A stretch of 64,000 bases of DNA from Carcharhinus amblyrhynchos (taxonomy: Eukaryota): assembly GCA_965287045.1 (NCBI GenBank), contig OZ336889.1, forward strand, positions 44,516,001 to 44,580,000. Direction: 5' to 3'. The notes under the pieces are model-generated. The model saw only the letters and a program-made list of their open reading frames with translations, was not told the DNA's origin and did not search any database. The translations under genes were made by a program, and so were the position numbers. Numbering within the stretch: position 1 is the first letter of the stretch; each line of letters opens with the position of its first letter. Positions 186 through 61,833 of this stretch are shown here, one piece after another.

Positions 186-234
186 ATGACACAATCGATT
201 GGAGTTCTCGCCGCACTGATACTCTGTTTCCACA
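186..234 (+). CDS. IgL cluster 1 exon 1, signal peptide MTQSIGVLAALILCFH(S)
   Basis: Kozak-like ACCATG, hydrophobic leader, phase-1 donor A|gtaagt at 235. Confidence 0.93.
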
Positions 235-374
235 GTAAGTACAGGCGTCGGCCTGAAGTAACGCTAATTTTCTTCACATTATGTATTTCTGCGCCTGTGT
301 TTTAACGAACCTGAATTGTGAGCTATATTCAACATTTCACAGTGTGTGACTGACAATACTTTGCATTTCACCAG

Positions 375-725
375 GTACAATTGCGGATCCTGTCCTGACC
401 CAACCAGGATCCATTTCGTCCTCACAGGGAAAGACCGTCACCATCATTTGCACCATGTCTGGTGGCACCACTGGCAGCTACTGGTCGAGCTGGTACTGGC
501 AGAAACCCGACAGCGCCCCTGTGCTTGTTTGGTCCGAGTACAATGGTCTGGCTTCGGGTATTCCGAATCGATTCGCCGGGTCTGTGGACTCATCGAGTAA
601 CAAGATGCATTTAACCATCACCAACGTGCAATCGGAGGACGCTGCAGATTATTACTGTGGTGCTGGTGCGAGAAGCAGTCCATATAGAAGCATTTTCGGG
701 AGTGGAACGAAGTTGAATCTGGGCA
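375..725 (+). CDS. IGLV: IgL cluster 1 exon 2, germline-joined VJ (lambda-like, shark type II): STIA-DPVLTQPGS...C...WYWQ...DYYC-GAGARSSPYRSI-FGSGTKLNLG
   Basis: Acceptor ccag| at 374; Ig V hallmarks (FR1 Cys, Trp, DYYC) run in frame into the FGxG J motif with no RSS; donor A|gtaagt at 726. Confidence 0.96.
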
Positions 726-1029
726 GTAAGTAAATCACTTAACTCTCCTCTAACATTTGTGACGCTTTCTAAATAACTAAATGTACTTGGAAACGGTCGG
801 ATAGGTGGACTGAATTAGTGCAAATCAAAATGATCGCTCCTAAAATATTGTTATGGGGGATCTTTGATTCAGCAGGAAATGATATTGCAGTGATAGCTGG
901 GCTCAGAACTTCGGCGATTTTCTGGAGTGTGTGCTGTTATGTGATAGGGTAAAGGGGCATTTCAGTTACGAGTGAAACTCATTTCACTGGAAGCTTCCGG
1001 TCTGATCTGCTGGGACTGTGCAGAATTTT

Positions 1030-1265
1030 CAACCATCTGATCCAGCCGGCAGTGCGAGGAGATGATTGAGAATGCGGTTGCTAGGAAGATGGAATGTTTC
1101 CCTTCGCTTAGCCAGTGTTAGGAGTGGAGTGCCCCAGCTGTATGAACACTGCGAGCGGAACTATAATTAGCAAGACGATAAACATTTCAAAAGTGAAAAA
1201 ACAGGCATGCAAATGAGCTAAATGGGGAAGTTTGTACAAGCTACAATCGGCCACCTAGTGGGGTC
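1030..1265. promoter_or_regulatory. Candidate J-C intronic enhancer (octamer ATGCAAAT 1207-1214, IRF-like AAAAGTGAAA 1189-1198, PU.1-like GGGGAAGT, E-boxes CATCTG and CAGCTG)
   Basis: Motif cluster ~480 bp 3' of J; octamer also present at 25644, 44053 and 62315; function inferred only. Confidence 0.5.
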
Positions 1266-1914
1266 TATAATTCCATGATTGTATGAAGGGACACAGTGGT
1301 TCAGGTTCTTTCATACTCTGCCCCTGTAGTCTGGTTTAAAGGGTTAGAATTGCATTCAAAGCGTTTACATCAGGCTGTTTCATTCCATTTAAAGCAAGAT
1401 TGCATTATGTTTGCGGAATTATAGTGTGGTGACTGGGTGCGACTCACTCCCACTGGTCCCCAAACTCACTGAAAACCGTTCAGTACAAGATTCTCAGCCT
1501 AATATTTTGCATTAATCCCGGGTGTGCAAAATAACCGTATTGTTGCCGGAATTCCGCCAGTCATAATCGACCCTGATTGTTACTGGATCACATAGTACAA
1601 ACATCAATGATGTGCGGAATATTTGATTTCTTCGGAAATTACGGTTCATATTCTTCCCATCCAATCAGTTGTTTTGGAATGTCCCGGAATAAGGTTGTCA
1701 GGTTTTTGAGTATTGTTGTGGACTCGTTCAGATTGTTGTTGGTTCTCTGAGTGTCAGTTCGTCGTAATAGAACAAAAGATGGAGATTACTGCCAATATTG
1801 ATTCATGGGATGTGATCAGAAAGGTAACATTCATTTCACCACCCCCATCTCCCACGCCTATCATCCACGGATACAGTGACGGTGAGCCGCATTATCAAAC
1901 CGATGTCGTCCATG

Positions 1915-2180
1915 TGTCATAGGTACACCGCAGAGCTGTTAGGAAGGGAGTTAAGAGATTTTGGCCAGGCGACAGTGAAGGAAAGGCGGTACAGTTCTAC
2001 TTTGGTATGCTGTGTGGCTTGTTGGGGGTTTGCCACCTGGTGTTGTAGCCGTGCATCTGGTGCCCGTGTGTTCGTCCAGTGGAAGACATGGCTGGTTTGG
2101 AAGCTGTTGTCGGAGTTCCGGCAGTGTACCTTATAGATATCCACACTGTAGCGCCTGTACGTCAATGAGGGAGAAAAGCA
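1915..2180 (-). mobile_element. Decayed LINE 3' fragment in the J-C intron
   Basis: Resembles the 3' part (~11840-12050) of the minus-strand LINE at 11730-13380; copies at ~26360, ~44770 and ~63025. Confidence 0.4.
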
Positions 2181-2329
2181 ATATAATATATTCGCAAAAT
2201 CATAGAATGGTATATCTTTGGAAAATTGTTGTAGTCGAGTTGGCCAATCGTGTCTGCACTGGTTCACAAGGAACAATCTAACATTTATTCATTAGCCTTT
2301 AAATTACACATTCTATGTTCGTTTAAGTG

Positions 2330-3300
2330 ACCATTAATTTGCCAATAACAGCCTCTCCGGCAGTAGGTTCCACATCCCCTAAACCCTCTGGGTGAAACGA
2401 TTCCCTTCCAATCTCCGCGAAACCTTCTACTTCTAACGACAAATCCAAGTCCTGTTCTTATCGACCCCTCAACCATTGGCAATACTGTTTTCCGATCCAT
2501 TCTGCCCAGACACCTCAGAATATTATGCCTTCAAATGGGTTTATTTTCAGCCTCGTCTGTTCCGAACAAAAGGGACAATTCAATACTTATAACTAAATAT
2601 TCCATTCCAGCCGACATCCCTCTAGATCTGCCTGTACTCGTTCTCGTACAATTACATTTTTCCTATGCATCTTTCCAGCAGTTTCAGCATAACCTCAAAG
2701 TTCTAACAATCTCTACCTCAGCTTATAAATGTAAATGCCCCCTATGCCTTCTTTGCTACTATATCCAGTTGCTCAGCCGCCTTCAGAATCTGTGGACCTG
2801 CGTTTTCTGTTCACTAATTTTCTCTACATTTCTCGGCATTTTCCCATCTGTACAGTGTACTCGCTTGTCTTGTTGGTTTTCCTGAAGTGCAGTTCCTCAC
2901 ACTTTTCGGCAATTAATTCCATTTGTCGCCGGTGCACTAATCTAACTAGTCCATTGTCTTCCTGCATTATCCAGCTTTCTTGTTCGCAACCACACTGCCA
3001 AATTTGTATCATCGAACAACAATCATACAGGCACTCATTGATATACGGACCCTTTGTTCCCTGCCACTGAGCCAATTTCGGATCCAACCTGTTCATCCTA
3101 TGTGTGAACTTAACAAGGGCCTTGTTAAAATCCATGTAGACTATGCGAAAAATATTGCCGTCATTCACCGCTTCATACTACCTGCTCAAAAATACCAATT
3201 AACGCTTTGGGGTGAGATTTACCGGCAGCAAAGCCGTGATCGCTATATTTGATTATGCCGCGTTTATTCCATTAGTTCTCCCTTCACTGAGGTTAAGTTC
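2330..3300 (-). mobile_element. Degenerate CR1-type LINE ORF2 (RT) fragment in the J-C intron
   Basis: Remnant motifs IVYMDFNKALVKF (cf. VYMDFSKAFDKV), MELIAEKCEELHF (cf. MEFNxEKCEVMHF) and RRFRGD; copies at ~26770-27740, ~45190-46140 and 63440-64000. Confidence 0.75.
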
Positions 3301-5058: not shown

Positions 5059-5381
5059 GTCCACGGAGCCCCACTGTGTCTCTCCTTCCGCCTTCGTCGG
5101 ATCAAATCACAGCGAAGAACATGGCGACCCTGGTGTGTTTGGTGAGTGGTTTCAACCCGGGAGCTGCGGAGATTGAATGGACTGTCGATGGCAGCGTCAG
5201 AGGGAATGGGGTTGAGACCAGTCGGATCCAGCAGGAGGCGGACAACACGTTCAGTGTGAGCAGTTATCTGACTCTGTCAGCCTCAGACTGGAACTCACAC
5301 GAGCTTTACTCCTGTGTGGTTAAACACGAGACTCAAGCAAACCCGCTTCAAACAAGCATCTCCAGATCCAGCTGTATGTGA
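5059..5381 (+). CDS. IGLC: IgL cluster 1 exon 3, constant domain (S)PRSPTVSLLPPS...ATLVCLVSGFNPG...YSCVVKHE...SRSSCM*
   Basis: Acceptor ttccag| at 5058, phase compatible with VJ; C1-set motifs (ATLVCL, W, YSC.V.H) and a penultimate Cys for the H-L bond. Confidence 0.96.
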
Positions 5382-9890: not shown

Positions 9891-10224
9891 TAATGGTATG
9901 TTTTCAGTATGGTACCAGGTATGTTCTTGCTTTCTACTGCGTTTTACATACGCTCTGTTATTCGCCTTTCTTCCCCCAAATTCCTTCACTCCTGGCCTCT
10001 AATTCTCATCTGTAAATACCTCCGTAAATGAAAACAAATTTTGCGCCACTGCCGCTTTGGCCTTACTTCACTGCTGCTTTTGGAACGAGTTCAGGTGAAC
10101 GGGCTTTTCTGTGACACGTAAACCAATCTGGTCAGGAGGTTCATCATCAATACCACTGCCAACAGCGTGTCACCAACATGGCTGGTCAAGTATTGTGCAC
10201 ATGTTTCCTAATAGCACAAATGTT

Positions 10225-10480
10225 TTTGATTTGATATGATTTGATTTCTCACTGTTTTAGATAATAGTGTACAGTGACAAGTATTCTTTCTTACACGTTT
10301 TATCGACAAAGCATACCGTTCATAGAGAAGGAAAGGAGCGAGTGCAGAATGCAGTGTAACAGTCACATCTAGGGTATGGAGAAACATCAACTCAATGCGA
10401 GTTAGGTCCACTCAAAAGTCCGAGGGCAGCAGGAAGGAAGGTGTTCTTAATTTGGTTGGTACGTGTCCTCAGACTTCATT
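10225..10480 (-). mobile_element. 3' end of a Rex1/Babar-like LINE with a (TTTGA)n tail
   Basis: The copy at ~35655-35910 translates as KNGFFPAALRLLN (cf. KNSFFPxAIRLLN); short pentamer tail; further copies at ~17297 and ~54175. Confidence 0.55.
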
Positions 10481-10868
10481 TTTTCGCGATGGAGTCACAT
10501 ATGTACTGAGTAAGGATGCCAGATTTCCTGCCGGGAATGATTTTAATGAACAAATGTCTTTTTTCAGCAATTCAGTAGTTTCATGGTTAGCATGATAATA
10601 ACTGATTTTGTTCAAGATTTATTGCCAGATACCATGATGGGATTTAGTATCATTGCTTGTTCCAGGACTCTGCAATACTCATCCGGCAATTAGTCGCCGG
10701 TCTTTGGCGTCCGGCACGCTTTACAGTGTTAGTTCCTGCTCCCTTGTTTGAGGCTAGGCGTGCACCTGTCTTCGAAGCGTTTGAAATGCATCATAAACGT
10801 ACGGATCGGATTTAAGCTTAATTTACTAGAGACTGAGCACTGTTTCGCCGAACACAACAGTGCGAATA

Positions 10869-11179
10869 ACCCTTCTACAGAAATTGTGTTTCTCTCTTCC
10901 CAAGTACTACCAGATCTCCCGAATTTATCTTCAATTTTATGTTATAATTGTCATTTTATTCTCCCTGCTTTCTATTGGACTTTGCACAATTGAAGAAAGA
11001 AGTCTAAAAGGAATCCCAACGAACCTTATGCAGAAATTGTGTTTCTCTCTTCAAAAGTGCTATCAGATCTCCCGAATTTATCCTAAATTTTATGTTATAA
11101 TTGTCATTTCATTCTCCCTGCTTTCTATTGGACTATGCACAACTGATGAAAGAAGTCGGAACCGAATCCCAATGAACCT
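10869..11179 (+). repeat. ~153-bp tandem duplication
   Basis: 'cagaaattgtgtttctctcttc' at 10878 and 11031; also doubled at ~17940-18250 but single at ~36295 and ~54830. Confidence 0.9.
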
Positions 11180-11729
11180 GTGCGTGTTTTGCGGCTGAAC
11201 CGGCAGATGGCAATACTGCAGTTGATATACCAAGGACCGTGTAATTACATGAAGCGTATATGGGGCGAGAAATATCTCAAAATGTCAATTCCTGGCAAAA
11301 TACGTGGACACTTGGAAAATAGGGATTCGGACATGAAAGTCGTTTTCAGAATATTCTCATTAGATATTGCCAATTAATTTGGATGTTTCATGAGTTCCCC
11401 TTTTTAATGGTGAATGTCCATAATATCAGAAAATCCGAATGATGAGAAGCAGTAAGATCCCAGTGCCACTAAATGTGTTACTATCACTTCCTTTCCTGCG
11501 TCATTCACTAAAGATAATGCTGCCAGCGCCACATTAATGATCCGAACGTTCAGAAATTTGATAGGATAAAAATAGACAAAAAGGCGCGAACACGTTTCAG
11601 ACCATCACATGAACTGAATCGAAGATCAGGCCGAAGGTCGTGGCTGATGAGATCGTGGGGTCCACCCCACATTCGGTCTGCCCCTATGCTCTTTGGGTCC
11701 CTTTTCAATCAGTAATCTATCGAATTCTG

Positions 11730-13380
11730 CATTTTTTTAATGGGATGTGGGCATCGCCGGTTCGACCAGCATTTATTCCTCACCGCTAATTACCCTGGAG
11801 ATGATGGTGGTGAATTGCTTTGTTGAATCAGCGCCATCCCTGTGGTCTAAGTAAGCAATATATCCCCAGGTCAGATTGTGAATGACTTGGAGGAGAGCGC
11901 GAAGATGGTGGTGTTCCCATGTGTCTGCTCCCCTTGTACTTCTGGACGGTAGAGGTGTGATTTTGTAAGGTGTTGCCCATGGATATTGGATGGGTTTTTG
12001 CAGTACATGGTGCAGATGGTCCCAATTGCTGCCACTGTTCATCGTGACGGAAGCAGTTTGTGGAAGAGGTGCCAGTCAAGTTTTCTCCTGGATGGTGTGA
12101 GCTTCTTGAAAGTTATAGAACTTACACTCTCCTGGCCAGTGCAAATATTCCATCACACTCCAGACTTGTGCCTCGCAGGTGGTGCACAGGCTTGGGAGTC
12201 AGGAAGTGAGACACTTGCCACAGGATTCATGCCCTCCGACCTGCTCTTGTAGCCACCATATTTAAATGTCGACACCAGTTCAGTTTCTGGTCAATGGTCG
12301 GCCTTAGGAAGTCGACAGTGGCGGCATTACCGTTGGATGTCAAGAGACATTGATTAGTTGCTGGAGATGGCCATTTCCTGGCACTACTTTGTCCCGAAGG
12401 ATACTTGCCACTTGTCAACCCAAGCTTGGATATTGCACTGGACTTGCTGCATTTGGACATGGACGGCTTCATTCTCTGAGGGTGCGGGAATGGTGCTGTA
12501 CACTATGCGATCATCCCCATTCCTGACATTATGATGCAAGGAACGTTATTGGTAGAGCAGCTGAAGATAGTTGGGCCTGGAATATCATCTTGAGAAACTC
12601 TTGCAGAGAAGTGTGCAAATTAGAGGATTGAACTCCAACCACAGCAAGACTTTTCCCTGTGCCAGGTATGACTGCAGCCAGCATAGAAATTTCCCTCTGA
12701 ATCGAATTGACTCCATTATTCCTCGAGCTCTTTAATTCCACCCGTGCTGCCTTGACGTCAAAGGCAGTCACTTCACATCTGACATTCAATTACTCTTGTC
12801 CATGTTTGACTCAAAGTTGTAATGAAGTCAGGCGCTGGGTGACTAGCGGAATCCAAACTATGTGTCAGTGAGTAGGTTCCTGCTAAATTCCTGCCGTCTG
12901 ATTGTGCTGTTAATGACCCCTTCCATCAACTTGCTGATGATCTGGAGGGGCCTGATGGCTGATGAATAAGGTTGGAGATGCCCTTCTTTTTGCATAGAGG
13001 ACATAACTGGGCAATTTTCTGCAATGATGGGTAGATGCCAGTGTAGTAGACGCCCTTAAACAACTTGACAGGCGGGGCGGCATGGTCTGGAGCATAAGTC
13101 TTCAGAACTGTTGACAGAATATTGTTAGGGTCCAAAGCCTTTGCAGTATCCAACAGCTTTCGGACATGTCTTGGTATCACGTGGAGCGCATTGAATTGGC
13201 TGAAGCTTAACATCCGCGATGTTGACCATTCCTTTAGAAGGCCAAGATGTGACAGAAGATTGTTGCGAAGGCTTTAGCCTTATCTTTTCTCACTGATCAT
13301 TGAGGATGGGTACATCTGTGATGTCTTCTCTTCCAGTGAGTTGTTTAATTATCCACTACCATTCACGATGGGATATTCCT
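11730..13380 (-). mobile_element. Degenerate LINE ORF2 (RT), second family
   Basis: LDTAKALDPNNI...VLKT.AP, TGIYPSLQKIAQLCP..KK, VTAFDVKAA, and GVSQGGILGPTIFSC in the unit-3 copy; copies at ~18800-20450, ~37000-38670 and ~55520-57190. Confidence 0.85.
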
Positions 13381-13384
13381 GGTA

Positions 13385-15110
13385 AAGAGAGTTCCACAGA
13401 CTAATGTCTTCTACGGAAAATGAAATTCTCTTCATCTCCATCTCAACTGGAAAGCCTCCTATTTTAATTCATGTCCCCTCCTTCCAGTCTCCTTGGAGGG
13501 GAGGCACTTCCTCAGCATTCACCATCTCAACTTCCCTCGGGATAGTAGGTGTTTCAGCAGGATCACATTGAATTCTCCGAAACTCTAATGGGTACAAGAC
13601 CCAACTCTCCAACCGTTCCCAATATGATATCCCTTTCATCTGAAGGGGGCACCTTTCTCCGAATGTTGCTGGTGATATTGTATCCGTTCTGAGGTACCCG
13701 GGCCAACAGGAAAGTACTTTAGATGTGCTCGGGACAAAGCACGACAAATTTGTAGCGAATCTTCCCTACTTTTATATTCCATCCCACTTGCAATAGGTGA
13801 TAAAATTGCGTTTGCTTTCGTAATCACTTAAAGCTTCATGCTAAAGCTTTGTGAATCACGTTCCGGGGCACCCAGATTCCCCAGTGCTGCAGATCTTTGC
13901 ACTCTCATCTCCGTGTAAATAATTTGAGCTTTCCATTCTTCCTGCCAAAGTGGACCAATTCGCATTTCACCACATTATACTCCACCTGTTTCTTTTTACC
14001 ACTCCCGTAGCCTATCTAAATCCTGTTGGATACCATTTTTGCTCACTTCACAATTTACTTTCCCTCCTGTATTAAAGTCGTGAGAAAAAGTTGCAATCAA
14101 TCCTTCCCATCATCCATGTCGTTTCTGTAAATTGATAACAGTTGAGGCCCCAGATGTAATCCTGTGATTCACCGCCGGCTACAGTTTGCCCCTCCCCCCT
14201 ACAAAAAAATGGCTCAGTTACCCCACCTCTCTGTTTCTGTAAGGCAACCAGTCCTCGATTCGTGATGAATATTATCCTATACATGATGACCTCCTATTTG
14301 ACATTTCATATTGTATCTTTGAAACTGTTTCTTATTAAATACGTTTTGGAAATCCAAGTGTACAGGTTCCTCTTTATTCAACTTACTAATAAGTTGCTCC
14401 AGTAAGTGTATGAAATTAGTACAGTATGGCTTCATCTGTACAAAACCATGTTGGCTCTACATAATTGCAAGCGCCATGCGATAACCTTCTAATAATAGAT
14501 TTGAGCATTTAACTTTTGACAGATGTTAGGCTAACTGGCTTGTAGTTACATGTTTTCAGTTTCTTTCTTTTCTTGAATAGAGGAGATAGATATGCTATTT
14601 CCCGATCTCGTCGAGTAATAAAATAACTACACTGCAGACAGAGGGGAATCGGCCCTTCGCGTCTGCATCCACTCCCCCTCAGGGTATCTTACCCAGCTCT
14701 ATCATGTCCTAATGACTTGACAGCCTTTAGTTCTGACCGTTTTCTTAGTAGCATTGACCTGGTGGTTGTAATTGCTTTATGTTCCTCGCTCCTTTCTCCC
14801 TCTTCACCTGCAAGTATTTCTGGGACATTATTTACATATTCTCCAGCAAGGCAGAGAAAATATATCAATTCTTCTGCCATTTCCTCATTTCGTATAATTT
14901 TTCGACGTTCCTTTTCCAGAGTAACAACACTTATTTTAGTGAGCATTTTTCTTTTTAAAAGCATGTAGACATTCTTACATTCATTTTCTATGTCCAGTTA
15001 ACATTCTCTCATACTGTAAGTTCTCCTTTGTCATTACTTTATTTGTCAATCTTTGTCTGTTTTAATATTCTCCCCAATCTTTAGCTCTGCCACTAATCGC
15101 AAAGTTTCGC
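13385..15110 (-). mobile_element. Degenerate CR1-type LINE ORF2
   Basis: KANAILSPIASGMEYKSRE...RAHLKY, MKGISYWERLE, RNEEMAEEL, and NYKPISLTSV in the unit-2 copy; copies at ~20455-22170, ~38675-40390 and ~57195-58900. Confidence 0.85.
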
Positions 15111-15138
15111 ACTTTTTCTCCCACTCGGGCTCTATCAT

Positions 15139-15166
15139 TGGAGATGTTGGGACTTTAACATCTCCA
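15139..15166. other. Perfect 10-bp inverted repeat TGGAGATGTT-GGGACTTT-AACATCTCCA
   Basis: Identical at 22204-22231, 40429-40456 and 58933-58960. Confidence 0.8.
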
Positions 15167-15649
15167 TGAAGTAGGCCCGCTTTCTGTCTGTTATTTCAGC
15201 TGCATACCGTCTTCAGTCAACTTTAACCTGCATTCCTGGCCCTGTGCCAATCATTTTCCGATTCGACTGACACGCCATCAGGGTGGTTCTTCTCTCGCTT
15301 CTGCTGTCTTGTTGCATTAAACTGAACTAGTGTCTGTCTCTCTCCCTCTCTCCACACTGCAGATGTCAACTCTGTGCATTCCACCCACAGGCAAGGCCTT
15401 ATACCTCTCACTCCCTGGGTACTGACTGCACTGCATGACGTGGACCTGAGACATATCCTTTCAGTAAGTACCCTGCGATAACTTTCAGCCTAACAACTTT
15501 AATTATCTGTTCCTGATCCCTCTCCCTGACCGCCGTTTGGACATTTTCCCACTGATGGTAAAATTTTAATATTCCTTCCCCACCGTTAATTCGTTCGACG
15601 CGGGAGTCAGTAAAACTCCAACAACCGAGTCCAAATGCAAGCAAGTATG

Positions 15650-16165
15650 TTAACCCTTTTATCTTTGTTAGACCCCAGCTAGTGTATTAGTTCAGTTCTT
15701 GACAATATTCTTCGAAAGTATTTCAGAGTTTTGGAGAGTGTGCAGGAAGGTGTATTAGCATGTTTCCAGGATAAAAGTCCTCAGTTAGATGTAAGGACGG
15801 GAAACGTGGAGTTGTTCTCCTTAGAGCCGCACAGTAGATTTGATGAAGATGTTCTTAAAGGTGTTGGATAAAGAAAGTAGGAGCTGCTTCAAATGTCGGG
15901 AAGTTTGATCACCAGATGGCAAACATTTGAAATAACTCGGGAACAGGAACAGAAGAGGGCTGGTGCTGGGTAAATATGTTCCGACTCTTAATGAGCTGGA
16001 GACAATTGGATCAAGGGCTCGTGGAAGAGGATTGAACAATCCCTGTAAAGAAGATGGAAAATATGTCGAAAACTGGAGTAAGACCAAGACAGAAATTCCA
16101 GTTCTATCGCTCCTTTACAGAACCGACATGGATGCGATGGGCTGATTGCCCTCTTTCTGCGATCA
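15650..16165 (+). mobile_element. Decayed CR1-type LINE 3' end
   Basis: VRPQL...ALESVQ-like remnant and tail 'gatgggctgattgccctctttctg'; copies at ~22715, ~40930 and ~59430. Confidence 0.6.
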
Positions 16166-16759
16166 ACCTTCTCGAATTTTTTATACTGACGCAACTGCAT
16201 CTGCACCGCGATCGGCAGCTCTCCAGGCGGAGTAATTAATTCATTTCTTCTCGTTCTCCTCTGTGCGCCTCAGCTGCATAACCAAAATGTTACTTCTCCC
16301 AATTGTTCAAGGACACATGGGGTGAAGGTGTGTGACAAGCTCATGTTACCAACATTTAAAGGGCTTGCCAGATTTTGTTTAATTTTTCAAATGCGGGAGC
16401 AATAGAACATTGTTCGATGGCTTCTGCAATACTGTCGGGAGGCGGGAGGCGAGGGTCGTGTTGTGGGGGGAGGGTCACCGGTCATCAGAAATCTGATTTT
16501 AAAAACTGCTATTTTCAGCTCAGTCCGATGTCAGCAAATGCATTGACATTCTCAAACTCACTGTTTCCTATGACAGCAAATATACCCCTCAAATCAAACA
16601 ACGAACGTCACGCGAAAGCTCTGTTTCCTCGAGCATTTTATTTTGCCAAGGCTTAACTCACTGTATGCCGTGGGTTTGCAGCGCTTGAATAAAGCTGAGT
16701 GGGCAGTCTTCGCACCTCAATCACATTCTAGATAGGAAATAAATTGTTTCTCCAGGGTT

Positions 16760-17043
16760 GTCTATCATGCACTCACTTCAGATATCTATCTATCTATGTG
16801 TCGATCTATCTACCTATCTATCTAACTATCTGGCTATCTATCTCTATCCAACTGCCTGTCTCTCTATCCATCTATGCACCTATCTGTNNNNNNNNNNNNN
16901 NNNNNNNNNNNNNNNNNNNNNNNNNNNNNNNNNNNNNNNNNNNNNNNNNNNNNNNNNNNNNNNNNNNNNNNNNNNNNNNNNNNNNNNNNNNNNNNNNNNN
17001 NNNNNNNNNNNNNNNNNNNNNNNCTATCTGTCGATCTATCTAT
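16760..17043. repeat. (TCTA/TCTG)n microsatellite containing an N run (16888-17023)
   Basis: Direct inspection. Confidence 0.9.
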
Positions 17044-20000
17044 CTTCCCCCAAATTCCTTCACTCCTGGCCTCTAATTCTCATCTGTAAATACCTCCGTA
17101 AATGAAAACAAATTTTGCGCCACTGCCGCTTTGGCCTTACTTCACTGCTGCTTTTGGAACGAGTTCAGGTGAACGGGCTTTTCTGTAACACGTAAACCAA
17201 TCTGGTCAGGAGTTTCATCATCAATACCACTGCTAACAGCGTGTCACCAATATGACTGGTCATGTATTGTGCACATGTTTCCTAATAGCACAAATGTTTT
17301 TGATTTGATATGATTTGATTTCTCACTGTTTTAGATAATAGTATACAGTGACAAGTATTCTTACACGTTTTACCGACAAAGCATACCGTTCATAGAGAAG
17401 GAAAGGAGCGAGTGCAGAATGCAGTGTAACAGTCACATCTAGGGTATGGAGAAACATCAACTCAATGCGAGTTAGGTCCACTCAAAAGTCCGAGGGCAGC
17501 AGGAAAGAAGGTGTTCTTAATTTGGTTGGTACGTGTCCTCAGACTTCATCTTTTTAGCGATGGAGTCACATATGTACTGAGTAAGGATGCCAGATTTCCT
17601 GCCGGGAATGATTTTAATGAACGAATGTCTTTTTTCAGCAATTCAGTAGTTTCATGGTTAGCATGATAATAACTGATTTTGTTCAAGATTTATTGCCAGA
17701 TACCATGATGGGATTTAGTATCATTGCTTGTTCCAGGACTCTGCAATACTCATCCGGCAATTAGTCGCCGGTCTTTGGCGTCCGGCACGCTTTACAGTGT
17801 TAGTTCCTGCTCCCTTGTTTGAGGCTAGGCGTGCACCTGTCTTCGAAGCGTTTGAAATGCATCATAAACGCACGGATCGGATTTCAGCTTAATTTACTAG
17901 AGACTGAGCACTGTTTCGCCGAACACGACAGTGCGAATAACCCTTCTACAGAAATTGTGTTTCTCTCTTCCCAAGTACTACCAGATCTCCCGAATTTATC
18001 TTCAATTTTATGTTATAATTGTCATTTTATTCTTCCTGCTTTCTATTGGACTTTGCACAATTGAAGAAAGAAGTCTAAAAGGAATCCCAACGAACCTTAT
18101 GCAGAAATTGTGTTTCTCTCTTCAAAAGTGCTATCAGATCTCCCGAATTTATCCTAAATTTTATGTTATAATTGTCATTTCATTCTCCCTGCTTTCTATT
18201 GGACTATGCACAACAGATGAAAGAAGTCGGAACCGAATCCCAATGAACCTGTGCGTGTTTTGCGGCTGAACCGGCAGATGGCAATATTGTAGTTGATATA
18301 CCAAGGACCGTGTTATTACATGAAGTGTATATGGGGCGAGAAATATCTCAAAATGTCAATTCCTGGCAAAATACGTGGACACTTGGAAAATAGGGATTCG
18401 GACATGAAAGTCGTTTTCAGAATATTCTCATTAGGTATAGCCAATTAATTTGGATGTTTAATGAGTTCCCCTTTTTAATGGTGAATGTCCATAATATCAG
18501 AAAATCCGAATGATTAGAAGCAGTAAGAACCCAGTGCCACTAAATCTGTTACTATCACTTCCTTTCCTGCGTCATTCACTAAAGATAATGCTGCCAGCGC
18601 CACATTAATGATCCGAACGTTCAGAAATTTGATAGGATAAAATTAGACAAAAAGGCGCGAACACGTTTCAGACCATCACATGAACTGAAACGAAGATCAG
18701 GCCGAAGGTCGTGGCTGATGAGATCGTGGGGTCCACCCCACATTCGGTCTGCCCCTGTGCTCGTTGGGTCCCTTTTCAATCAGAAATCTATCGAATTCTG
18801 CATTTTTTAATGGGATGTGGGCATCGCCGGTTCGACCAGCATTTATTCCTCACCGCTAATTACCCTGGAGATGATGGTGGTGAATTGCTTTGTTGAATCA
18901 GCGCCATCCCTGTGGTCTAAGTAAACAATATATCCCCAGGTCAGATTGTGAATGACTTGGAGGAGAGCGCGAAGATGGTGGTGTTCCCATGTGTCTGCTC
19001 CCCTTGTACTTCTGGACGGTAGAGGTGTGATTTTGTAAGGTGTTGCCCATGGATATTGGATGGGTTTTTGCAGTACATGGTGCAGATGGTACCCACTGCT
19101 GCCACTGTTCATCGTGACGGAAGCAGTTTGTGGAAGAGGTGCCAGTCAAGTTTTCTCCTGGATGGTGTGAGCTTCTTGAAAGTTATAGAAGTTGCACTCT
19201 CCTGGCCAGTGCAAATATTCCATCACACTCCTGACTTGTGCCTCGCAGGTGGTGCACAGGCTTGGGAGTCAGGAAGTGAGACACTTGCCACAGGATTCAT
19301 GCCCTCCGACCTCTTGTAGCCACCATATTTAAATGTCGACACCAGTTCAGTTTCTGGTCAATGGTCGGCCTTAGGAAGTCGACAGTGGCGGCATTACCGT
19401 TGGATGTCAAGAGACATTGATTAGTTGTTGGAGATGGCCATTTCCTGGCACTACTTTGTCCCGAAGGATACTTGCCACTTGTCAACCCAAGCTTGGATAT
19501 TGTACTGGACTTGCTGCATTTGGACATGGACGGCTTCATTCTCTGAGGATGCACGAATGGTACTGTACACTATGCGATCATCCCCATTCCTGACATTATG
19601 ATGCAAGGAACGTTATTGGTAGAGCAGCTGAAGATAGTTGGGCCTGGAATATCATCTTGAGAAACTCTTGCAGAGAAGTGTGCAAATTAGAGGATTGAAC
19701 TCCAACCACAGCAAGACTTTTCCCTGTGCCAGGTATGACTGCAGCCAGCATAGAAATTTCCCTCTGAATCGAATTGACTCCATTATTCCTCGAGCTCTTT
19801 AATTCCACCCGTGCTGCCTTGACGTCAAAGGCAGTCACTTCACATCTGACATTCAATTACTCTTGTCCATGTTTGACTCAAAGTTGTAATGAAGTCAGGC
19901 GCTGGGTGACTAACGGAATCCAAACTATGTGTCAGTGAGTAGGTTCCTGCTAAATTCCTGCCGTCTGATTGTGCAGTTAATGACCCCTTCCATCAACTTG

Positions 20001-42899: not shown

Positions 42900-42921
42900 T
42901 CACGTGACAGGAAATTTGCAT
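42900..42921 (+). promoter_or_regulatory. Cluster 3 promoter: E-box plus octamer ATTTGCAT (42914-42921)
   Basis: Same arrangement as cluster 1. Confidence 0.8.
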
Positions 42922-43035: not shown

Positions 43036-43084
43036 ATGACACAATCGATTGGAGTTCTCGCCGCACTGATACTCTGTTTCCACA
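43036..43084 (+). CDS. IgL cluster 3 exon 1, signal peptide
   Basis: Same leader peptide; donor at 43085. Confidence 0.9.
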
Positions 43085-43571: not shown

Positions 43572-46500
43572 GTAAGTAAATCACTTAACTCTCCTCTAAC
43601 ATTTGTGACGCTTTCTAAATAACAAAATGTACTTGGAAACGGTCGGATAGGTGGACTGAATTCGTGCAAATCACAATGATTGCTCCTAAAATATTGTTAT
43701 GGGGGATCTTTGATTCAGCAGGAAATGATATTGCAGTGATAGCTGGGCTCAGAACTTCGGCGATTGTCTGGAGTGTGTGCTGTTATGTGATAGGGTAAAG
43801 GGGCATTTTAATTACGAGTGAAATTCATTTCACTGGAAGCTTCCGGTCTGATCTGCTGGGACTGTGCAGAATTTTGAACCATCTGATCGAGCCGGCAGTG
43901 CGAGGAGATGATTGAGAATGCGATTGCTAGAAAGATGGAATGTTTCCCTTCGCTTAGCCAGTGTTAGAAGTGGAGTTCCCTAGCTTTATGAACACTGCGA
44001 GCGGAACTATAATTAGGAAGACGATAAACATTTCAAAAGTGAAAAAACAGGCATGCAAATGAGCTAAATGGGGAAGTTTGTACAAGCTACAATCGGCCAC
44101 CGATTGTGGTCTATAATTCCATGATTGTATGAAGGGACACAATGGTTCAGGTTCTTTCATACTCTGCCCCTGTAGTCTGGTTTAAAGGGTTAGAATTGCA
44201 TTCAAAGCGTTTACATCAGGCTGTTTCATTCCATTTAAAGCAAGACTGCATTATGTCTGCGGAATGATACTGTGGGTGACTGGGTGCGGCTCACCCTGGT
44301 CCCCAAACTCACTGAAAACCGTTCAGTACAAAATTCTCAGCCTAATGTTTTGCATTAATCCCGGGTGTCCAAAATAACCATACTGTTGCCGGAATTCCGC
44401 CAGTAATAATCGACCCTGATTGGAACTGGATCACATCGCAACAAATATCAATGATGCGTGGAATATTTGCTTTCTTTGGAAATTATGGTTCATTTTCTTC
44501 GCATTCAATGTGTTGTTTTGGAATGTCCCGGAATAAGGTGGTCAGGTTTTTGAGTATTGTTGTGGACTCGTTCAGATTGTTGTTGGTTCTGTGACTGTCA
44601 GTTAGTAGTAATAGAACAAAAGATGGAGATTACTGCCAATATTATTTGACTGATGGGATGTGATCAGAAAGGTAACATTCATTGCACCAAACCGACCCCC
44701 CCCCCACCCCGCCTAATATCCATGGATAAAGTGGTGGTGAGCCGCATTCTCAAACAAATGTCATCCAAGTGTCATAGGTACACCGCAGACCTGTTAGGGA
44801 GGGAGTTAAGAGATTTTGGCCAGGCGACAGTGAAGGAAAGGCGGTACAGTTCTACTTTGGTATGCTGTGCGGCTCGTTGGTGATTTACCAACTGATGTTG
44901 TTGTCGTGCATCTGGTGCCCTTGTGTTGGTCCAGTGGAAGACATGGCTGGTTTGGAAGCTGTTGTCGGAGTTACGGCAGTCTACCTTATAGATACCGACG
45001 CTGTCGCTCCTGTGCGTCAATGAGGGAGAAAAGCAATAGAATATATTCGCAGAATCATAGAATGGTATATCTTTGCATCATTGTTACTATCTACTTGGCC
45101 AATTCTGTCTGCACTGGTTCACAAGGAACTATCTAAATTTATTCATTAGCCTTTAAATTACACATTGTATGTTAGTTTAAGTGTTCATTAATTTGCCACA
45201 AACAGGTTTTCCAGCAGGAGGTTCCACATCCCCTAAACCCTCTGGGTGAAACTATTCCCTTCCAATCTCCGCTAAAGCTTCCACTTCTAACGACAAATCC
45301 AAGTCCTGTTCTTATCGACCCCTCAACCATTGGCAATACTGTTTTCCGATCCATTCTGCCCAGACACCTCAGAATATTATGCCTTCAACTCGATTTCCTT
45401 TCAGCCTCGTCTGTTCTAAAGTAAAGGACAATTCAATACTTACTTATAACTAAATATTCCAGTCCAGCCGACATCCCTCTAGATCTCCCTGTACTCGCAC
45501 TCGTACAATAACATTTTTCCTCTGCATCTTTCCAGCAGTTTCAGCATAACCTCCAAGCTCTAACAATCTCTACCTCCGCTTATGCCTTCTTTGCTAGTAT
45601 GTCCACTTGTTCAGCCGCCTTCTGGATCTGTGGACATGCATTTTCTGTTCCCTAATTTCTCTACATTTCTCGGCATTTTCCCATTTATACAGTGTACTCG
45701 CTTGTCTTGTTGGTCTTCCTGAAGTGCAGTTCCTCGCACTTTTCCGCATTTAATTTCAGTTGCCGCTGTTGAATTTATCTGACTAGTCCAATGTTGTCTT
45801 CCTGCATTATCCAGCTTTTTTGTTCGCAAACACATTGTTAAATTTGTGTCACCTAACAACAATCATACAGGCACTCATTGATATACAGACCCTTTGTTTC
45901 CTGCCTTTGAGCCAATTTCGGATCCAACCTGTTCATCCTATGTGTGAACTTAACAAGGACCTTGCTAAAATCCATGTAGACTATACCAAAAATGTTGCCG
46001 TCATTCACCGCTTCATGCTGCCTGCTCAGAAATACCAATTCACGCTGTGGGTTAAGATTTTCCGCCAGCAAAGCCGTGATCGCTGTATTTGATTATGCCA
46101 TGTTTATTCCATTCGTTCTCCCTTCAGTGAGGTTAGGTTCTCTGGTCTATAATTATGCTACCACCCTTTCGCCCTTTGACAATTTCATCTGTCTTCCTGT
46201 TTCCGAGAGTCAAGCCTGCTCCGGGCACGATTGGAAAACTGTGATCATGGTCTCTTCCCTTCTCAATCTTCCTTTCCTTTTTTTTATTATTTTCTTCTTC
46301 GAGTCATTTGTTTGCTGGACTATGTTACGGTGAAATGGACCAGCATGAGGCAAAAGGGAAAAAATGCTCTTGAATGTTATAGTTATTACTTTAAGAAATC
46401 AGATCTGGTGAAAATGCCGGTGTAAAAATAATTCACTGAAGCCCGCTGCCCTTGAAATAGAAGTTGATCTTCACACTTGCTCATCGGTGCAAACTTTTGA

Positions 46501-48065: not shown

Positions 48066-48388
48066 GTCCACGGAGCCCCACTGTGTCTCTCCTTCCGCCT
48101 TCATCGGATCAACTCACAGCGAAGAACATAGCGACCCTGGTGTGTTTGGTGAGCGGTTTTAACCCGGGAGCTGCGGAGATTGAATGGACTGTCGATGGCA
48201 GCGTCAGAGGGAATGGGGTTGAGACCAGTCGGATCCAGCAGGAGGCGGACAACACGTTCAGTGTGAGCAGTTACCTGACTCTGTCAGCCTCAGACTGAAA
48301 CTCACACGAGCTTTACTCCTGTGTGGTTAAACACGAGACTCAAGCAAACCCGCTTCGAACAAGCATCTCCAGATCCAGCTGTATGTGA
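48066..48388 (+). pseudogene. IGLC: IgL cluster 3 constant exon with a premature stop (Trp TGG>TGA at 48296-48298)
   Basis: GAC TGA AAC versus GAC TGG AAC in cluster 1; the truncation removes the second intradomain Cys and the C-terminal Cys. Confidence 0.88.
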
Positions 48389-54300: not shown

Positions 54301-57300
54301 GTGTAACAGTCATAGCTAGGGTGAAGAGAAACATCAACTTAATGCGAGATAGGTCCATTCAAAAATCTGAGGGCAGCAGGGAAGAAGCTGTTCTTAACTT
54401 GGTTGGTGCGTGTCTTCAGAGTTCAGTATCTTTCTGGCGATGGAAAACGTGGAGTCGCAAATGTACTCAATAAGGATGCCAGATTTCCTGCCGGGAATGA
54501 TGTTAATTAAGTGAATTTTTTTTTCAGCAATTCAGTAGTTTCATGATTAACATTATTATAACTGGTTTTGTTCAAGATTTATTGCCAGATACCATGATGG
54601 GATTTAGAATCATTGCTTGTTCCTGGACTCTGCAGAACTAATCCGGCAATTAGTCGCCAGTCTACACTTTCCGGCATGCTTTAGGTGTTGGTTCCTGCTC
54701 TCTTGTTTGAGACTGCGCCTGCACCTGTCTTCGAAGCGTTTGAAATGCATCATAAAAGTACGGATCGGATTTACGCTTAATTTACTACAGACTGAACACT
54801 GCTTCACCCAACACAGCAGTGAGAATAACCCTTATGCAGGAATGGTGTTTTCTTTCTTCAAAATTGCTGCCAGATCTCCCGAATTTATCCTGAATTTTGT
54901 GTTATAATTATCATTTCAACCTCCCTGTTTTCTACTGGACTATGCGCAATAGATGAAAGAAGTCGAAACCGAATTTCAATGAACCTGTGCGCGTGTTGCT
55001 GCTGAACCAGCAGATGGCAATAGTGTACTTGGTATACCAAGGACCGTGTTATTCCATGAAGTGTATACAAAATATCAATTCCTGGCAAAATACCTGGACT
55101 CTTGGAAAATAGGGATTTGGACATGAAAGTCGTTTTCAGAATATTCTCATTAGGTATTGTCAATTAATTTGGATGTTTCATGAGTTCCCCTTTTTAATGG
55201 TGAATGCCCATAATATCAGATAATCCGAATGATTAGAAACAGGAAGAAACCAGTGTCACTAAATGTGTTACTATCACTTCCTTTCCTGCGTCATTCACTA
55301 AAGATAATGCTGACAGCGCCACATTAATGGATCCGAAGATTCAGAAATTTGGTAGGATAAAAATAGACAAAAAGGGCACAAATACGAATCATACGATCAT
55401 GTGAATTGGAACGAAGATCAGGCCGAAGATCATGACTCATGAGGCCATGGGCTCGACCCCACATTCGATCCACCCCTATGGTCTTTGGGGCCCTTTTCAG
55501 TCAGAAATCTATCGAATTCTGCATTTTTTAATGGGATGTGGGCATCGCTGGTTCGACCAGCATTTATTCCTCACCGCTAATTCCCCTGGAGATGATGGTG
55601 GTGAACTGCTTTGTTGAATCAGCGCAGTCCCTGTGGTCTAAGTAAGCAATATATCCCCAGGTCAGATTGCGAATGAGTTGGAGGAGAGCGCTAAGGTGGT
55701 GGTGTTCCCATGTGTCTGCTGCCTTTGTTCTTCTGGGCGGTAGAGGTGTGATTTTGTAAGGTGTTACCCATGGATATTGGATGGGTTTTTGCAGTGCATC
55801 GCGCCGATGGTGCTCACTCCTGCCACTGTTCATCGTGACGGGGCAGTTTGTCGAACAGGTGCCAGTCAAGATTTCTCGTGGATAGTGTGAATCTCTAGAA
55901 AGTTATAGAAGTTGCACTCTCCTGGCTAGTGCAAATATTCCATCACAATCCTGACTTGTGCTTCGCAAACGGTGGACAGGTTTGGCGAGTAAGGAAGTGA
56001 GATACATGCCACAGGTTTCATGAATTCTGACCTGCTCTTGTAGCCACCATATTTAAATGTCAAGACCTGTTCAGTTTCTGGTCAATGGTCGGCCTTAGGA
56101 AATCGATAGTGACGGCATTACCGTTGAATGTCAAGGGATAATGATTAGTTGTTGGAGGTGGTCATTTCTAGGCACTACTTTGTCACGAAGGATACTTGCC
56201 ACTTGCCAGCCCAAGCTTGGATGTTGCCCTGGACTTGCTGCATTTGGACATTCACGGTTTTCAGTCTCTGAGGATGCGGGATGGTATTGTACGGCATGTG
56301 ATCATCCCCATTGCTGACATTATGATGCAAGGAACGTTACTGATAGAGCAGCTGAAGATAGTTGGGCCGAGGATACCACCTTGAGAAACTCCTAGGATTC
56401 CATCTTGAGAAGTGTGCAAATTAGAGGATTGAACTCCAACCACAGCAAAACCCTTCCTCTGTGCCAGGTATGACTGCAGCTAGCGTAGAATTTTCCCTCT
56501 GAATCTAATTGACTCCATTATTCCTCGAGCTCCTTAATTCCACCCGTGCTGCCTTGACGTCAAAGGCAGTCACTTCACATCTGACATTCAATTACTCTTG
56601 TCCATGTTTGACTCAAGGATGTAATGAAGTCAGGCGCTGAGTGACTAACGGAATCCAAACTATGTGTCAGTGAGTAGGTTCCTGCTAAGTTCCTGCCGTT
56701 TGATTGCGCTGTTAATGACCTCTTCCATCAACTTGCTGATGATCTGGAGTGGCCTGATGGCTGATGAATAAGGTTGGAGATGCCCTTCTTTTTGCATAGA
56801 GGACATAACTGGGCAATTTTCTGCAATGACGGGTAGATGCCAATGTTGTAGATGTACTGAAACAAATTGACTGGCAGGGCCGCATGGTTTGGAGCACAAG
56901 TCTTCAGGACAGTGGACAGAATATTGTTAGGGCCCAAAGCCTTTGCAATTTCCAACGCGTTTGGACATTTCTTGGTATCAGGTGGAGTGAATTGAATTGG
57001 CTGAAGCTTGACATCCGCGATGTTGACCATTTCTTTAGAAGGCCAAGATGGAACATTCACTTCGCACATGTGACAAAAGATTGTTGCGAAGGCTTTAGCC
57101 TTATCTTTTTCACTGATCATTGAGGATGGGCACATTTGTGATGTCTTCTCCTCCAGTGAGTTGTTTAATTATCCACTACCATTCACAATGGTAAAGAGGG
57201 TTCCACAGGCTAATGGTTCTCACGGAAAATGAAATTCTCTTTATCTCCATCTCAACTGGAAAACCTTCTATTTTAGTTCATGTCCCCTCCTTCTAGTCTC

Positions 57301-60300: not shown

Positions 60301-60584
60301 AAAACTGCTATTTTCAGCTCATTCCGATGTCGGCAAATGCATTGACATTCTCAAACTCATTGTTTCCTATGACAGCAAATATGCCCCTCAAATCAAACAA
60401 CGAAAGTCATGCGAAAGCTCTGTTTCCGAGAGCATTTCACTTTGCCAAGGCTTAACTCACTGTGTATGCCGTGGGTTTCCAACACTTGAATAAAGCTGAG
60501 GGGGCAGTCTTGGCACTTAATCACATTCTAGGTAGGTACTAAAATGTTCTTCGGGACTTGTCTATCATTCACTCACTTAGCATA

Positions 60585-60790
60585 GCCATCTATATATGTA
60601 TCTACCTACCTATCTGACTATCTATCTCCATCCCTCTATCTATCTGTCTGCCTCTCCATCTATCCATCCATTCATCTATCTATCTACCTGTCGATCCATC
60701 TATCTGTTTCTCTGTCTATCAATCTATCCATCAATCTAGCTATCTATCTATCTGTCTATCTATCTATCTATCTATCTATCTATCCATCAA
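60585..60790. repeat. (TCTA/TCCA/TCTG)n microsatellite upstream of cluster 4
   Basis: Direct inspection. Confidence 0.9.
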
Positions 60791-61150
60791 TCGCGAAAAG
60801 CCAATAAGGAGCGTGGGCTTACGCCTCTCTGTGTGCACATGAAATCTCAACTCACAGTTTTCGTCTTTAATTTATTCACCAAGGACGTTACGCCTATTAA
60901 ACAGCTCACTGCCCGCAACATTTATTTATTGTAATCGGCAGGTTCCAGAGATCAAGCCACGATTCATTTAATCTGTTTTATGTTTCACTGCACCGTTTGT
61001 TTTTTTCTGGGGGGAGGGATGTTGGGTATTGAGCCATTTTACATGCTATTCTGCGACTTGGGAGGTTTATATTTCTTCATTTCCAAAATGGCTGACGTGC
61101 TCATTCTGCAAATATCAGACAATACCGAAATGGAGATCTTCGGCCTAATA

Positions 61151-61172
61151 TCACGTGCCAGGAAATTTGCAT
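61151..61172 (+). promoter_or_regulatory. Cluster 4 promoter: E-box TCACGTGC plus octamer ATTTGCAT (61165-61172)
   Basis: Same arrangement as the others; the 3' flank of the E-box differs (A>C). Confidence 0.85.
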
Positions 61173-61293
61173 ACCTAATTCATATTCATTCGCCCTGCGG
61201 TGTTTGAGTCTTTTTAAGGAGAGGTTGGAATGGACTCAGAAGCGCGTTCGTGTCAGGATTTATTTTCCTTCTTCCTCTCCCCAAACCTTCACC

Positions 61294-61342
61294 ATGACAC
61301 AATCGATTGGAGTTCTCGCCGCACTGATACTCTGTTTCCACA
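61294..61342 (+). CDS. IgL cluster 4 exon 1, signal peptide
   Basis: Same leader peptide; donor at 61343. Confidence 0.93.
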
Positions 61343-61482
61343 GTAAGTACGGGCGTCGGCCTGAAGTAACGCTCATTTTCTTCACATTATCTATTTCTGC
61401 GCCTGTGTTTTAACGAACCTGAATTGTGAGCTATATTCAACATTTCACAGTGTGTGACTGACAATACTTTGCATTTCACCAG

Positions 61483-61833
61483 GTACAATTGCGGATCCTG
61501 TCCTGACCCAACCAGGATCCATTTCGTCCTCACCGGGAAAGACCGTCACCATCACTTGCACCCTGTCCGGAGGCACCATTAGCAGCTACTACGCGAGCTG
61601 GTACTGGCAGAAACCCGACAGCGCCCCTGTGCTTGTTTGGTCCGAGAGCGATGGTATGGCTTCGGGTATTCCGAATCGATTCGCCGGGTCTGTGGACTCA
61701 TCGAGTAACAAGATGCATTTAACCATCACCAACGTGCAATCGGAGGACGCTGCAGATTATTACTGTGCTGCTGCTGCGAGCAGCAGTCCATATAGATGCA
61801 TTTTCGGGAGTGGAACGAAGTTGAATCTGGGCA
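61483..61833 (+). CDS. IGLV: IgL cluster 4 exon 2, germline-joined VJ (CDR1 GGTISSYYAS; CDR3 AAAASSSPYRCI); C exon expected beyond the window end
   Basis: Intact splice sites, open frame, V and J motifs. Confidence 0.95.

What the first reader, a model, noticed from the sequence alone, without database searches (positions are those of the whole stretch)
186..61833. Dense tandem array of pre-joined (RAG-independent) Ig light-chain genes, each a self-contained transcription unit
Seen: four same-strand clusters 18-24 kb apart, each with its own octamer promoter and V fused in frame to J with no RSS; the three complete clusters also show their own C exon. Established: cartilaginous fish have cluster-type Ig loci, and their type II/lambda L chains are germline-joined. 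Inference: with no rearrangement step and near-identical promoters, a one-cell-one-light-chain outcome would need stochastic transcriptional choice among neighbours (as in olfactory receptor or protocadherin arrays), or else the genes are co-expressed. This array is a tractable place to look for such a mechanism.
Basis: partly seen in the sequence, partly recalled or inferred. Interest (0 to 1): 0.7.

Follow-up and report, generated by a model that had tools for sequence, protein, structure and literature searches.

The report
Shark pre-joined lambda antibody gene array
This is part of a run of 34 antibody light-chain genes in a shark, nearly all ready-joined as is long known for this gene type, but almost every copy also carries its own predicted DNA-looping (CTCF) site and the run ends in one unjoined copy, two features that could help show how a B cell picks one gene and how the joined genes arose.

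Summary
Observation confirmed, with corrections. The window holds units 27-30 of a 34-unit Ig lambda (type II) array on contig C20; nine more units lie 0.7 Mb away. The third window unit has a stop codon in C (48296); 37 of 42 joined units are intact. Germline-joined shark lambda clusters are known, and this scan noted the same array from the neighbouring window. The spacing is not special: the split kappa clusters are about as dense. Two additions. (1) A same-strand CTCF consensus lies within 14 kb (mostly about 6 kb) upstream of 29 of 31 plus-strand units; none in 200 kb of kappa or in the second array, and no reverse anchor within 270 kb downstream. (2) Outside the window, the array's edge unit is split, with lambda-type 23/12 signals; a catshark gene model reads through the same J signal. 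Reviews call all cartilaginous lambda genes joined. Its C exon has a stop. How one gene is chosen is untested; independent, insulated, low-probability activation is my best reading.

The parts
57..64 (+). Promoter octamer, unit 27
   Evidence: 129 bp before ATG
186..234 (+). Leader exon, unit 27
   Evidence: joint 234>375 GT..AG in a relative's RNA-guess contig
375..725 (+). Joined VJ exon, unit 27 (CDR3 12 aa), intact
   Evidence: joint 725>5059 GT..AG
1207..1214 (+). J-C intron octamer (inverted), unit 27; candidate intronic enhancer
   Evidence: function inferred
1250..1261 (-). Reverse CTCF-consensus match in J-C intron; exact only in this unit, degenerate in the others
5059..5381 (+). C exon, unit 27, intact; AATAAA at 5435 and 5576
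9966..23955 (.). 7-kb tandem duplication of spacer (9966-16887 / 17040-23955, 97.8%)
11200..11211 (+). Forward CTCF-consensus site (CCGG variant), first copy in the duplication
18271..18282 (+). Forward CTCF-consensus site, 6359 bp before unit 28 ATG
24501..24508 (+). Promoter octamer, unit 28
24630..24678 (+). Leader exon, unit 28
24816..25163 (+). Joined VJ exon, unit 28 (CDR3 11 aa), intact
25644..25651 (+). J-C intron octamer, unit 28
29492..29814 (+). C exon, unit 28, intact; AATAAA at 29868 and 30009
36469..36480 (+). Forward CTCF-consensus site, 6567 bp before unit 29 ATG
42914..42921 (+). Promoter octamer, unit 29
43036..43084 (+). Leader exon, unit 29
43224..43571 (+). Joined VJ exon, unit 29, open; identical to unit 26
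44053..44060 (+). J-C intron octamer, unit 29
48066..48388 (+). C exon, unit 29, with premature TGA at 48296-48298 before the second Cys: pseudogene; stop shared with unit 26
55007..55018 (+). Forward CTCF-consensus site, 6287 bp before unit 30 ATG
61165..61172 (+). Promoter octamer, unit 30
61294..61342 (+). Leader exon, unit 30
61483..61833 (+). Joined VJ exon, unit 30 (CDR3 12 aa); its intact C exon starts at window-equivalent 66169
62315..62322 (+). J-C intron octamer, unit 30

Best explanation
The window is four units of a tandem array of germline-joined Ig lambda light-chain minigenes, each with its own octamer promoter, VJ exon, intronic octamer, C exon and upstream CTCF-consensus motif, and each unit is likely switched on independently and with low probability in a developing B cell. 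Shown: gene anatomy, isotype, array extent, growth by recent unit duplications with mosaic nearest neighbours, and excess replacement changes in germline CDRs, which supply diversity in place of V-J junctions. Inferred: the joined state came from more than one RAG event in germ cells acting on split 23/12 clusters like the one still at the array's edge; the CTCF site would insulate each unit from its neighbours; feedback from a working receptor and heavy-light pairing would then leave mostly one light chain at the surface.
For: Anatomy. Isotype. 34+9 units. Splicing at the predicted joints and exon-centred cover in relatives' RNA-guess contigs. CDR pN/pS 2.42 (bootstrap 1.7-3.7), framework 0.52, C 0.29 over 26 units (24 for C). 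Units 98-99.5% alike over 11-14 kb and nearest relative changing along the unit. CTCF consensus upstream of 29 of 31 plus-strand units; the one broken copy belongs to pseudogene unit 16, and unit 3 has one at 18 kb. Motif 33-fold over its reversed control genome-wide (3328 vs 102). 20-mer around it more conserved than 401 of 401 neighbouring windows, 12-mer core at the 2.6% rank. Independent activation of few clusters with pairing and feedback is the model argued for shark IgH in PMC2435157. A single joining event is rejected, AU p 0.0086.
Against: No expression, chromatin or single-cell data for this animal; no run was on record as RNA. CTCF binding is a motif prediction, and most copies descend from one site, so they are not independent. 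The nine joined units of the second array have no exact site, so the site is not required for a joined lambda gene. The reversed pattern also hits 4 times in the array. The IgH model rests on rearrangement as the limiting step, which joined genes lack. Trout B cells transcribe several light chains (PMC8188548, title and one passage seen). The AU grouping was set after a tree had been seen, and kappa versus lambda is unresolved in those trees.
Confidence: 0.55

Rival explanations
1. Protocadherin-like choice: the tandem forward CTCF sites compete, through cohesin loop extrusion, for one shared distal enhancer with a reverse site, and that picks one lambda unit per allele.
For: 33 of 35 consensus matches in the array are on one strand; this is the topology of Pcdh-alpha in PMC7811963. 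The site recurs in at least three more spacer contexts that do not align with the main family, is not a repeat element (28 hits, all in the array), and none of the 40 listed differences in four other organisms' DNA falls in 55001-55022 (120 rows not shown). Kappa, which has rearrangement to limit it, has no match in 200 kb.
Against: No exact reverse site in 270 kb downstream (three one-mismatch candidates). Sites lie 5.6-10.9 kb from the ATG, not flanking the promoter. Each unit has its own C exon and intronic octamer. The second array lacks exact sites.
Confidence: 0.15
2. Co-expression: several lambda units are transcribed in each B cell, and specificity is set afterwards by which chain pairs with the heavy chain; the CTCF sites are structural only.
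For: Promoters 85-99.6% alike with an exact octamer in 37 of 42 joined units; nothing needs rearranging. Multiple IgL transcripts per cell in trout (listing). Recalled, paper not held: functional lambda mRNA in surface-kappa nurse shark cells (Iacoangeli 2017).
Against: Positive selection on germline CDRs is easier to explain if single units dominate a cell's receptor. C domains are 93-100% alike in units 2-6 and 9-34, so pairing could hardly discriminate through C.
Confidence: 0.27
3. The joined copies are a somatic B-cell product or an assembly artefact.
For: Units 32/33 and 26/29 have identical VJ exons.
Against: 42 joined units in several old lineages with orthologues in sharks, rays and chimaera; joined form in another organism's DNA contig; near-identical units still differ by 0.5-1.3%.
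Confidence: 0.01

Closest known systems
Sandbar shark (Carcharhinus plumbeus) germline-joined lambda / type II light chains (AAA86748.1, AAA86749.1; P0008, P0012, P0015)
   Same: Same leader, V 85% and C 97% identical to unit 27; joined VJ, own C, variable CDR3 length (5-12 here; 5-12 in PMC2192082).
   Different: Known from clones and cDNA; here the whole 43-unit layout, pseudogenes, CTCF motifs and a split member are visible.
Nurse shark NS3 (lambda)
   Same: Joined, cluster type (PMC5192425).
   Different: Six loci there, 43 here; that review gives 82 to over 200 kb between IgH clusters, against a median 18.4 kb here.
Little skate type I (sigma-2) joined genes, at least 89 clusters (PMC2192082)
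   Same: Large RAG-independent family with replacement changes concentrated in CDRs.
   Different: Other isotype; fixed CDR3 length; no octamer at the usual place.
Sterlet IgL3 / gar C-lambda pseudogene (PMC5985310)
   Same: Single V-J-C cluster with 23/12 signals, like the split edge unit; linked to IFT81, which lies on the same contig C20 here.
   Different: Bony fish; IFT81 is 17 Mb from the array here, so only chromosome-level linkage.
Clustered protocadherin alpha (PMC7811963)
   Same: Tandem paralogous promoters with same-orientation CTCF motifs.
   Different: Pcdh has promoter-flanking site pairs, a reverse-site enhancer and shared constant exons; none of these was found here.

Membership tests
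Chondrichthyan Ig lambda / type II L chain (window units) | V and J joined in frame in the germline, no RSS | tested here: met
   kappa positive control 7 of 7
Chondrichthyan Ig lambda / type II L chain (window units) | Cluster layout: leader, VJ, own C | tested here: met
   one C per VJ in all 43 units
Chondrichthyan Ig lambda / type II L chain (window units) | Orthology to cloned type II chains | tested here: met
   (unit 27 with P0008, 96/91)
Chondrichthyan Ig lambda / type II L chain (window units) | Octamer 100-150 bp before ATG | tested here: met
   criterion from PMC2192082
Chondrichthyan Ig lambda / type II L chain (window units) | Transcribed and spliced | tested here: inconclusive
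   predicted joints seen in related organisms' contigs guessed to be RNA; none from this animal
Chondrichthyan Ig lambda / type II L chain (window units) | Pairs with a heavy chain at the cell surface | not testable with these tools
   needs protein work
Protocadherin-type promoter choice | Tandem same-orientation CTCF sites, one per alternative | tested here: met
   motif only: 29 of 31 plus-strand units
Protocadherin-type promoter choice | Sites flank each promoter closely, as a pair | tested here: not met
   5.6-10.9 kb upstream; intronic reverse site exact in 1 of 26 units
Protocadherin-type promoter choice | Distal enhancer with reverse CTCF sites | tested here: inconclusive
   no exact reverse site in 270 kb downstream; three one-mismatch candidates; about 390 kb before the second array not read
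Protocadherin-type promoter choice | Shared constant exons | tested here: not met
   each unit has its own C
Protocadherin-type promoter choice | Stochastic monoallelic expression in single cells | not testable with these tools
   no single-cell data
Olfactory-receptor-type choice | Heterochromatin silencing, enhancer hub, feedback | not testable with these tools
   recalled features; no chromatin data
Rearranging lambda cluster (edge unit 1, outside window) | V with 23-spacer RSS facing J with 12-spacer RSS | tested here: met
   heptamers 1 mismatch, nonamers 2 and 0; 255 bp between coding ends
Rearranging lambda cluster (edge unit 1, outside window) | Belongs with lambda rather than kappa, sigma, sigma-2 or lambda-2 | tested here: inconclusive
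   V 44-57% and C 58-62% to shark lambda, against 40/50% kappa and 40/37% sigma; sister to joined units 35-36 at 98/97; CDR1/CDR2 8/3 by my hand count, outside the lambda-2 (5-7) and sigma-2 (8/7) ranges of PMC5985310; but no lambda-2 or sigma-2 sequence was in the trees and lambda monophyly is unresolved (AU p 0.26)
Rearranging lambda cluster (edge unit 1, outside window) | Intact C exon | tested here: not met
   TAG in C in this assembly; the Mustelus model P0001 is open
Rearranging lambda cluster (edge unit 1, outside window) | Somatic V-J joints in lymphocytes | not tested
   no read data obtained for this gene

The most novel reading that the evidence does not exclude
Shark lambda genes replaced RAG rearrangement with a CTCF/cohesin-based, protocadherin-like lottery that picks one of about 30 pre-joined antibody genes, and the array still carries at its edge the unjoined 23/12 lambda cluster type from which joined copies were made several times. 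The second half alone (a split lambda-type cluster kept in carcharhiniform sharks) I put at about 0.85 real and 0.6 unreported; the probability given is for the choice mechanism.
Probability: 0.15. Interest if true: 0.85.

Novelty: new variant of a known kind. Interest (0 to 1): 0.52.

Why it matters
How a shark B cell limits expression among dozens of ready-made light-chain genes is an old open question. A fully resolved array with distinct promoters (26 of 26), distinct VJ exons (24 of 26) and one predicted CTCF site per unit gives concrete targets for single-cell RNA, ChIP and Hi-C. A split 23/12 cluster among shark lambda genes would be an exception to the statement in three reviews or papers read here (PMC5192425, PMC4279169, PMC12227049) that these genes are all joined. 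It would show the lambda signal polarity directly in a cartilaginous fish and argue against one early joining event (proposed in PMC2192082).

Tried and rejected
Density as a special trait: rejected; 40 of 42 kappa C exons lie in 1.1 Mb of C9, about one per 28 kb. Intronic reverse CTCF motif as a conserved element: exact in 1 of 26 units, so weak. CTCF motif as a repeat-borne passenger: not supported. Re-splitting of unit 1 by a RAG transposition: no target-site duplication at the heptamers by eye, so retention of a split ancestor is preferred; carpet-shark and sevengill models of this lineage have a uniform 10-aa CDR3 and may be joined, which I could not check in DNA. Tight IFT81 linkage: 17 Mb away. 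PDB search: best hits mostly lambda-type human chains, no isotype resolution. No RNA holder listed as RNA. No sigma-2 locus was identified for the trees (C12 hit is a broken lambda-like C, C13 a multi-domain gene). Elephant-shark supplement: only tables were held, so its Ig notes were not seen. Literature searches for a split shark lambda gene and for CTCF at shark Ig clusters or single-cell lambda exclusion found no such report, but the main reviews (Hsu 2016, Matz 2021, Criscitiello and Flajnik 2007, Flajnik 2024, Iacoangeli 2017, Hohman 1993) were not held.
Full report
OBSERVATION. Each has an octamer 122-129 bp before the ATG, a 49-nt leader exon, one open exon with V and J in frame, and a J donor. 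Three C exons lie in the window (5059, 29492, 48066) and the fourth 2.2 kb beyond it. No RSS flanks any junction; the scanner finds paired 12/23 signals at 7 of 7 kappa V segments in 200 kb of C9. The 24-kb first gap is due to a 7-kb spacer duplication.

EXTENT AND IDENTITY. The window is G000:C20:44516001-44580000. It holds units 27-30 of 34 between 43.99 and 44.66 Mb; nine more lie at 45.34-45.51 Mb. Of 43 units, 42 are joined. Of these, 37 give full-length chains; units 16, 18, 26 and 29 are truncated and unit 14 has a one-base loss at the start of C (read by eye). Unit 27 is 85% (V) and 97% (C) identical to sandbar-shark lambda P0008 and groups with it. The animal is a carcharhiniform shark by protein similarity; I did not determine the species. 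Contigs of related organisms, guessed to be RNA, show the joints 234>375 and 725>5059 with GT..AG ends and cover centred on exons; a DNA contig spans CDR3, J and intron. Median spacing in units 9-34 is 18.4 kb, but 40 of 42 kappa C exons sit in 1.1 Mb, so tight packing is not tied to joining.

HOW DIVERSITY IS MADE. Over units 9-34, pairwise pN/pS is 2.42 in CDRs (bootstrap 1.7-3.7), 0.52 in frameworks and 0.29 in C (related copies are not independent, CDR limits set by hand). Pairs 26/29, 32/33, 27/30 and 28/34 are 96.8-99.5% alike over 11-14 kb, and the nearest relative changes along a unit, as expected from unequal crossover or conversion (inference). The stop in unit 29 was copied with unit 26.

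REGULATORY ANATOMY. An exact octamer lies upstream of 37 of 42 joined units (32 at 121-132 bp, 5 inverted at 187 bp), and most of units 10-34 have a second one about 480 bp into the J-C intron. A CTCF core consensus (recalled from memory) occurs on the plus strand within 14 kb upstream of 29 of 31 plus-strand units, mostly at 6.0-6.6 kb; window copies are at 11200, 18271, 36469 and 55007. Three exact matches of the stricter pattern occur in the window against 0.06 expected, though copies are not independent. The 13-mer pattern occurs 3328 times in the genome against 102 for its reversal, about one per 880 kb, and 24 times in 684 kb of the array. Among 26 homologous sites two variable core columns stay within the consensus and the one that breaks it is in pseudogene unit 16. 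The 20-mer around the core is more conserved than all 401 neighbouring windows, the 12-mer ranks at 2.6%. The site recurs in spacers of units 2-6 and near units 3 and 7 that do not align with the main family, and its flanks hit only the array. In four other organisms' DNA none of 40 listed differences falls in 55001-55022, with 120 rows not shown. Against a general role: no exact match in the nine-unit second array or in 200 kb of kappa, no exact reverse site in 270 kb downstream, and the reversed pattern hits 4 times in the array.

THE SPLIT EDGE UNIT (outside the window). Unit 1 (C20:43995375-43988854, minus strand) has a leader, an open V followed by a heptamer, 23 spacer and nonamer, and 255 bp on a nonamer, 12 spacer, heptamer and J with a donor. 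It is single-copy and its C has a TAG. Orthologues exist in Mustelus (V 98%), carpet sharks, sevengill shark and chimaera. The Scyliorhinus torazame model P0108 reads through the same J signal and intersegment, 29 of 41 residues identical to unit 1 read in the J frame, which indicates a split gene in a second family. The junction of the Mustelus model fits read-through of the J heptamer (inference). Two loose ends in an RNA-guess run match this lineage's C exon by eye. Its V and C are closer to shark lambda than to this genome's kappa or sigma; a V+C tree makes the lineage sister to joined units 35-36 at 98/97 (25 rows, a subset of the proteins held). A clade of all joined-type lambda without it is rejected (AU p 0.0086), one with it is not (p 0.26); the grouping was named after a tree was seen, and carpet-shark members may themselves be joined. 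No target-site duplication is visible, so a retained split ancestor with repeated germline joining is preferred, as shown for kappa in PMC2193156.

MECHANISM. Shown: self-contained joined lambda units, expanded in tandem and diversified in germline CDRs. Inferred (0.55): each unit is activated independently and rarely, insulated by its CTCF site, with receptor feedback and pairing doing the rest, by extension of the shark IgH model (PMC2435157). Rivals: co-expression with selection at pairing (0.27); protocadherin-like competition for one enhancer (0.15); artefact (0.01).

LITERATURE SEEN. Passages: PMC2435157, PMC5192425, PMC12227049, PMC4279169, PMC7811963, PMC3308330, PMC8188548 (listing and one passage). 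Abstract and passages: PMC2192082. Passages and one section: PMC2193156, PMC5985310 (supplements listed, not read). PMC3964593: supplement tables only. PMC6901605: a reference line. Iacoangeli 2017 and Hohman 1993 are recalled, not read. Three texts state that cartilaginous lambda genes are all joined. Searches found no report of a split shark lambda or of CTCF at shark Ig clusters, but key reviews were not held, so novelty is provisional.

VERDICT. The finding as written is a well-resolved example of a known gene type, already noted by this scan next door (e1-9395581). What lifts it is the per-unit CTCF motif, which makes the choice question testable, and the split 23/12 unit at the array's edge. 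Interest 0.52; new variant of a known kind.

Noticed in passing
G000:C20:43995375-43988854 minus (L001:2854-9375): Single split lambda-like cluster with V-23 / 12-J signals at the edge of the array; C has a TAG. V is 98% identical to the Mustelus orthologue, far more than main-family V genes (about 80%). Catshark model P0108 reads through the same J signal.
   Followed up: partly
G000:C20:43993308 (minus) and 44006324 (plus): Divergent pair of exact CTCF motifs between the split unit and the first joined unit, a boundary-like arrangement.
   Followed up: no
G000:C20:45340390-45514048 (L067-L084): Second array of nine joined lambda units in three V lineages; units 37-43 have V about 45-50% but C 83-91% identical to the window's, suggesting C homogenisation. 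One-mismatch CTCF-like divergent pairs upstream of several units.
   Followed up: partly
window 9966-23955; also near G000:C20:44624689/44631761: 7-kb spacer duplication that doubles the CTCF site; a similar doubling lies upstream of unit 33.
   Followed up: partly
G000:C9:83.84-84.95 Mb and 85.56-85.58 Mb: 42 kappa-type C exons in mixed orientation; 7 of 7 V segments in 200 kb are split with 12/23 signals, V-J distances about 0.8-2.3 kb.
   Followed up: partly
G000:C26:36.13-36.20 Mb (L094): Four sigma-like C exons; the V examined has a 12-spacer signal. No sigma-2 locus was identified by these searches.
   Followed up: no
G000:C12:26040646-26040954 minus (L097): Isolated broken lambda-like C exon resembling units 35-36, no V found in 20 kb.
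   Followed up: no
G000:C13:57580598-57587014 minus (L099): Three C1-type exons in a row without nearby RSS, possibly a UrIg-like gene (recalled from PMC12227049; not tested).
   Followed up: no
G000:C20:43948700-43949000 and 43976600-43976900 minus (L102, L087): Two divergent V-type Ig domains (21-27% to IgL V) just outside the array edge.
   Followed up: no
L091:4703-6651 (G000:C131): Heavy-chain-type cluster with three D segments between V and J, one with 12/12 spacers; IgNAR-like layout by recall.
   Followed up: no
window 61758-61805: Unit 30 encodes an extra cysteine at the end of CDR3.
   Followed up: no
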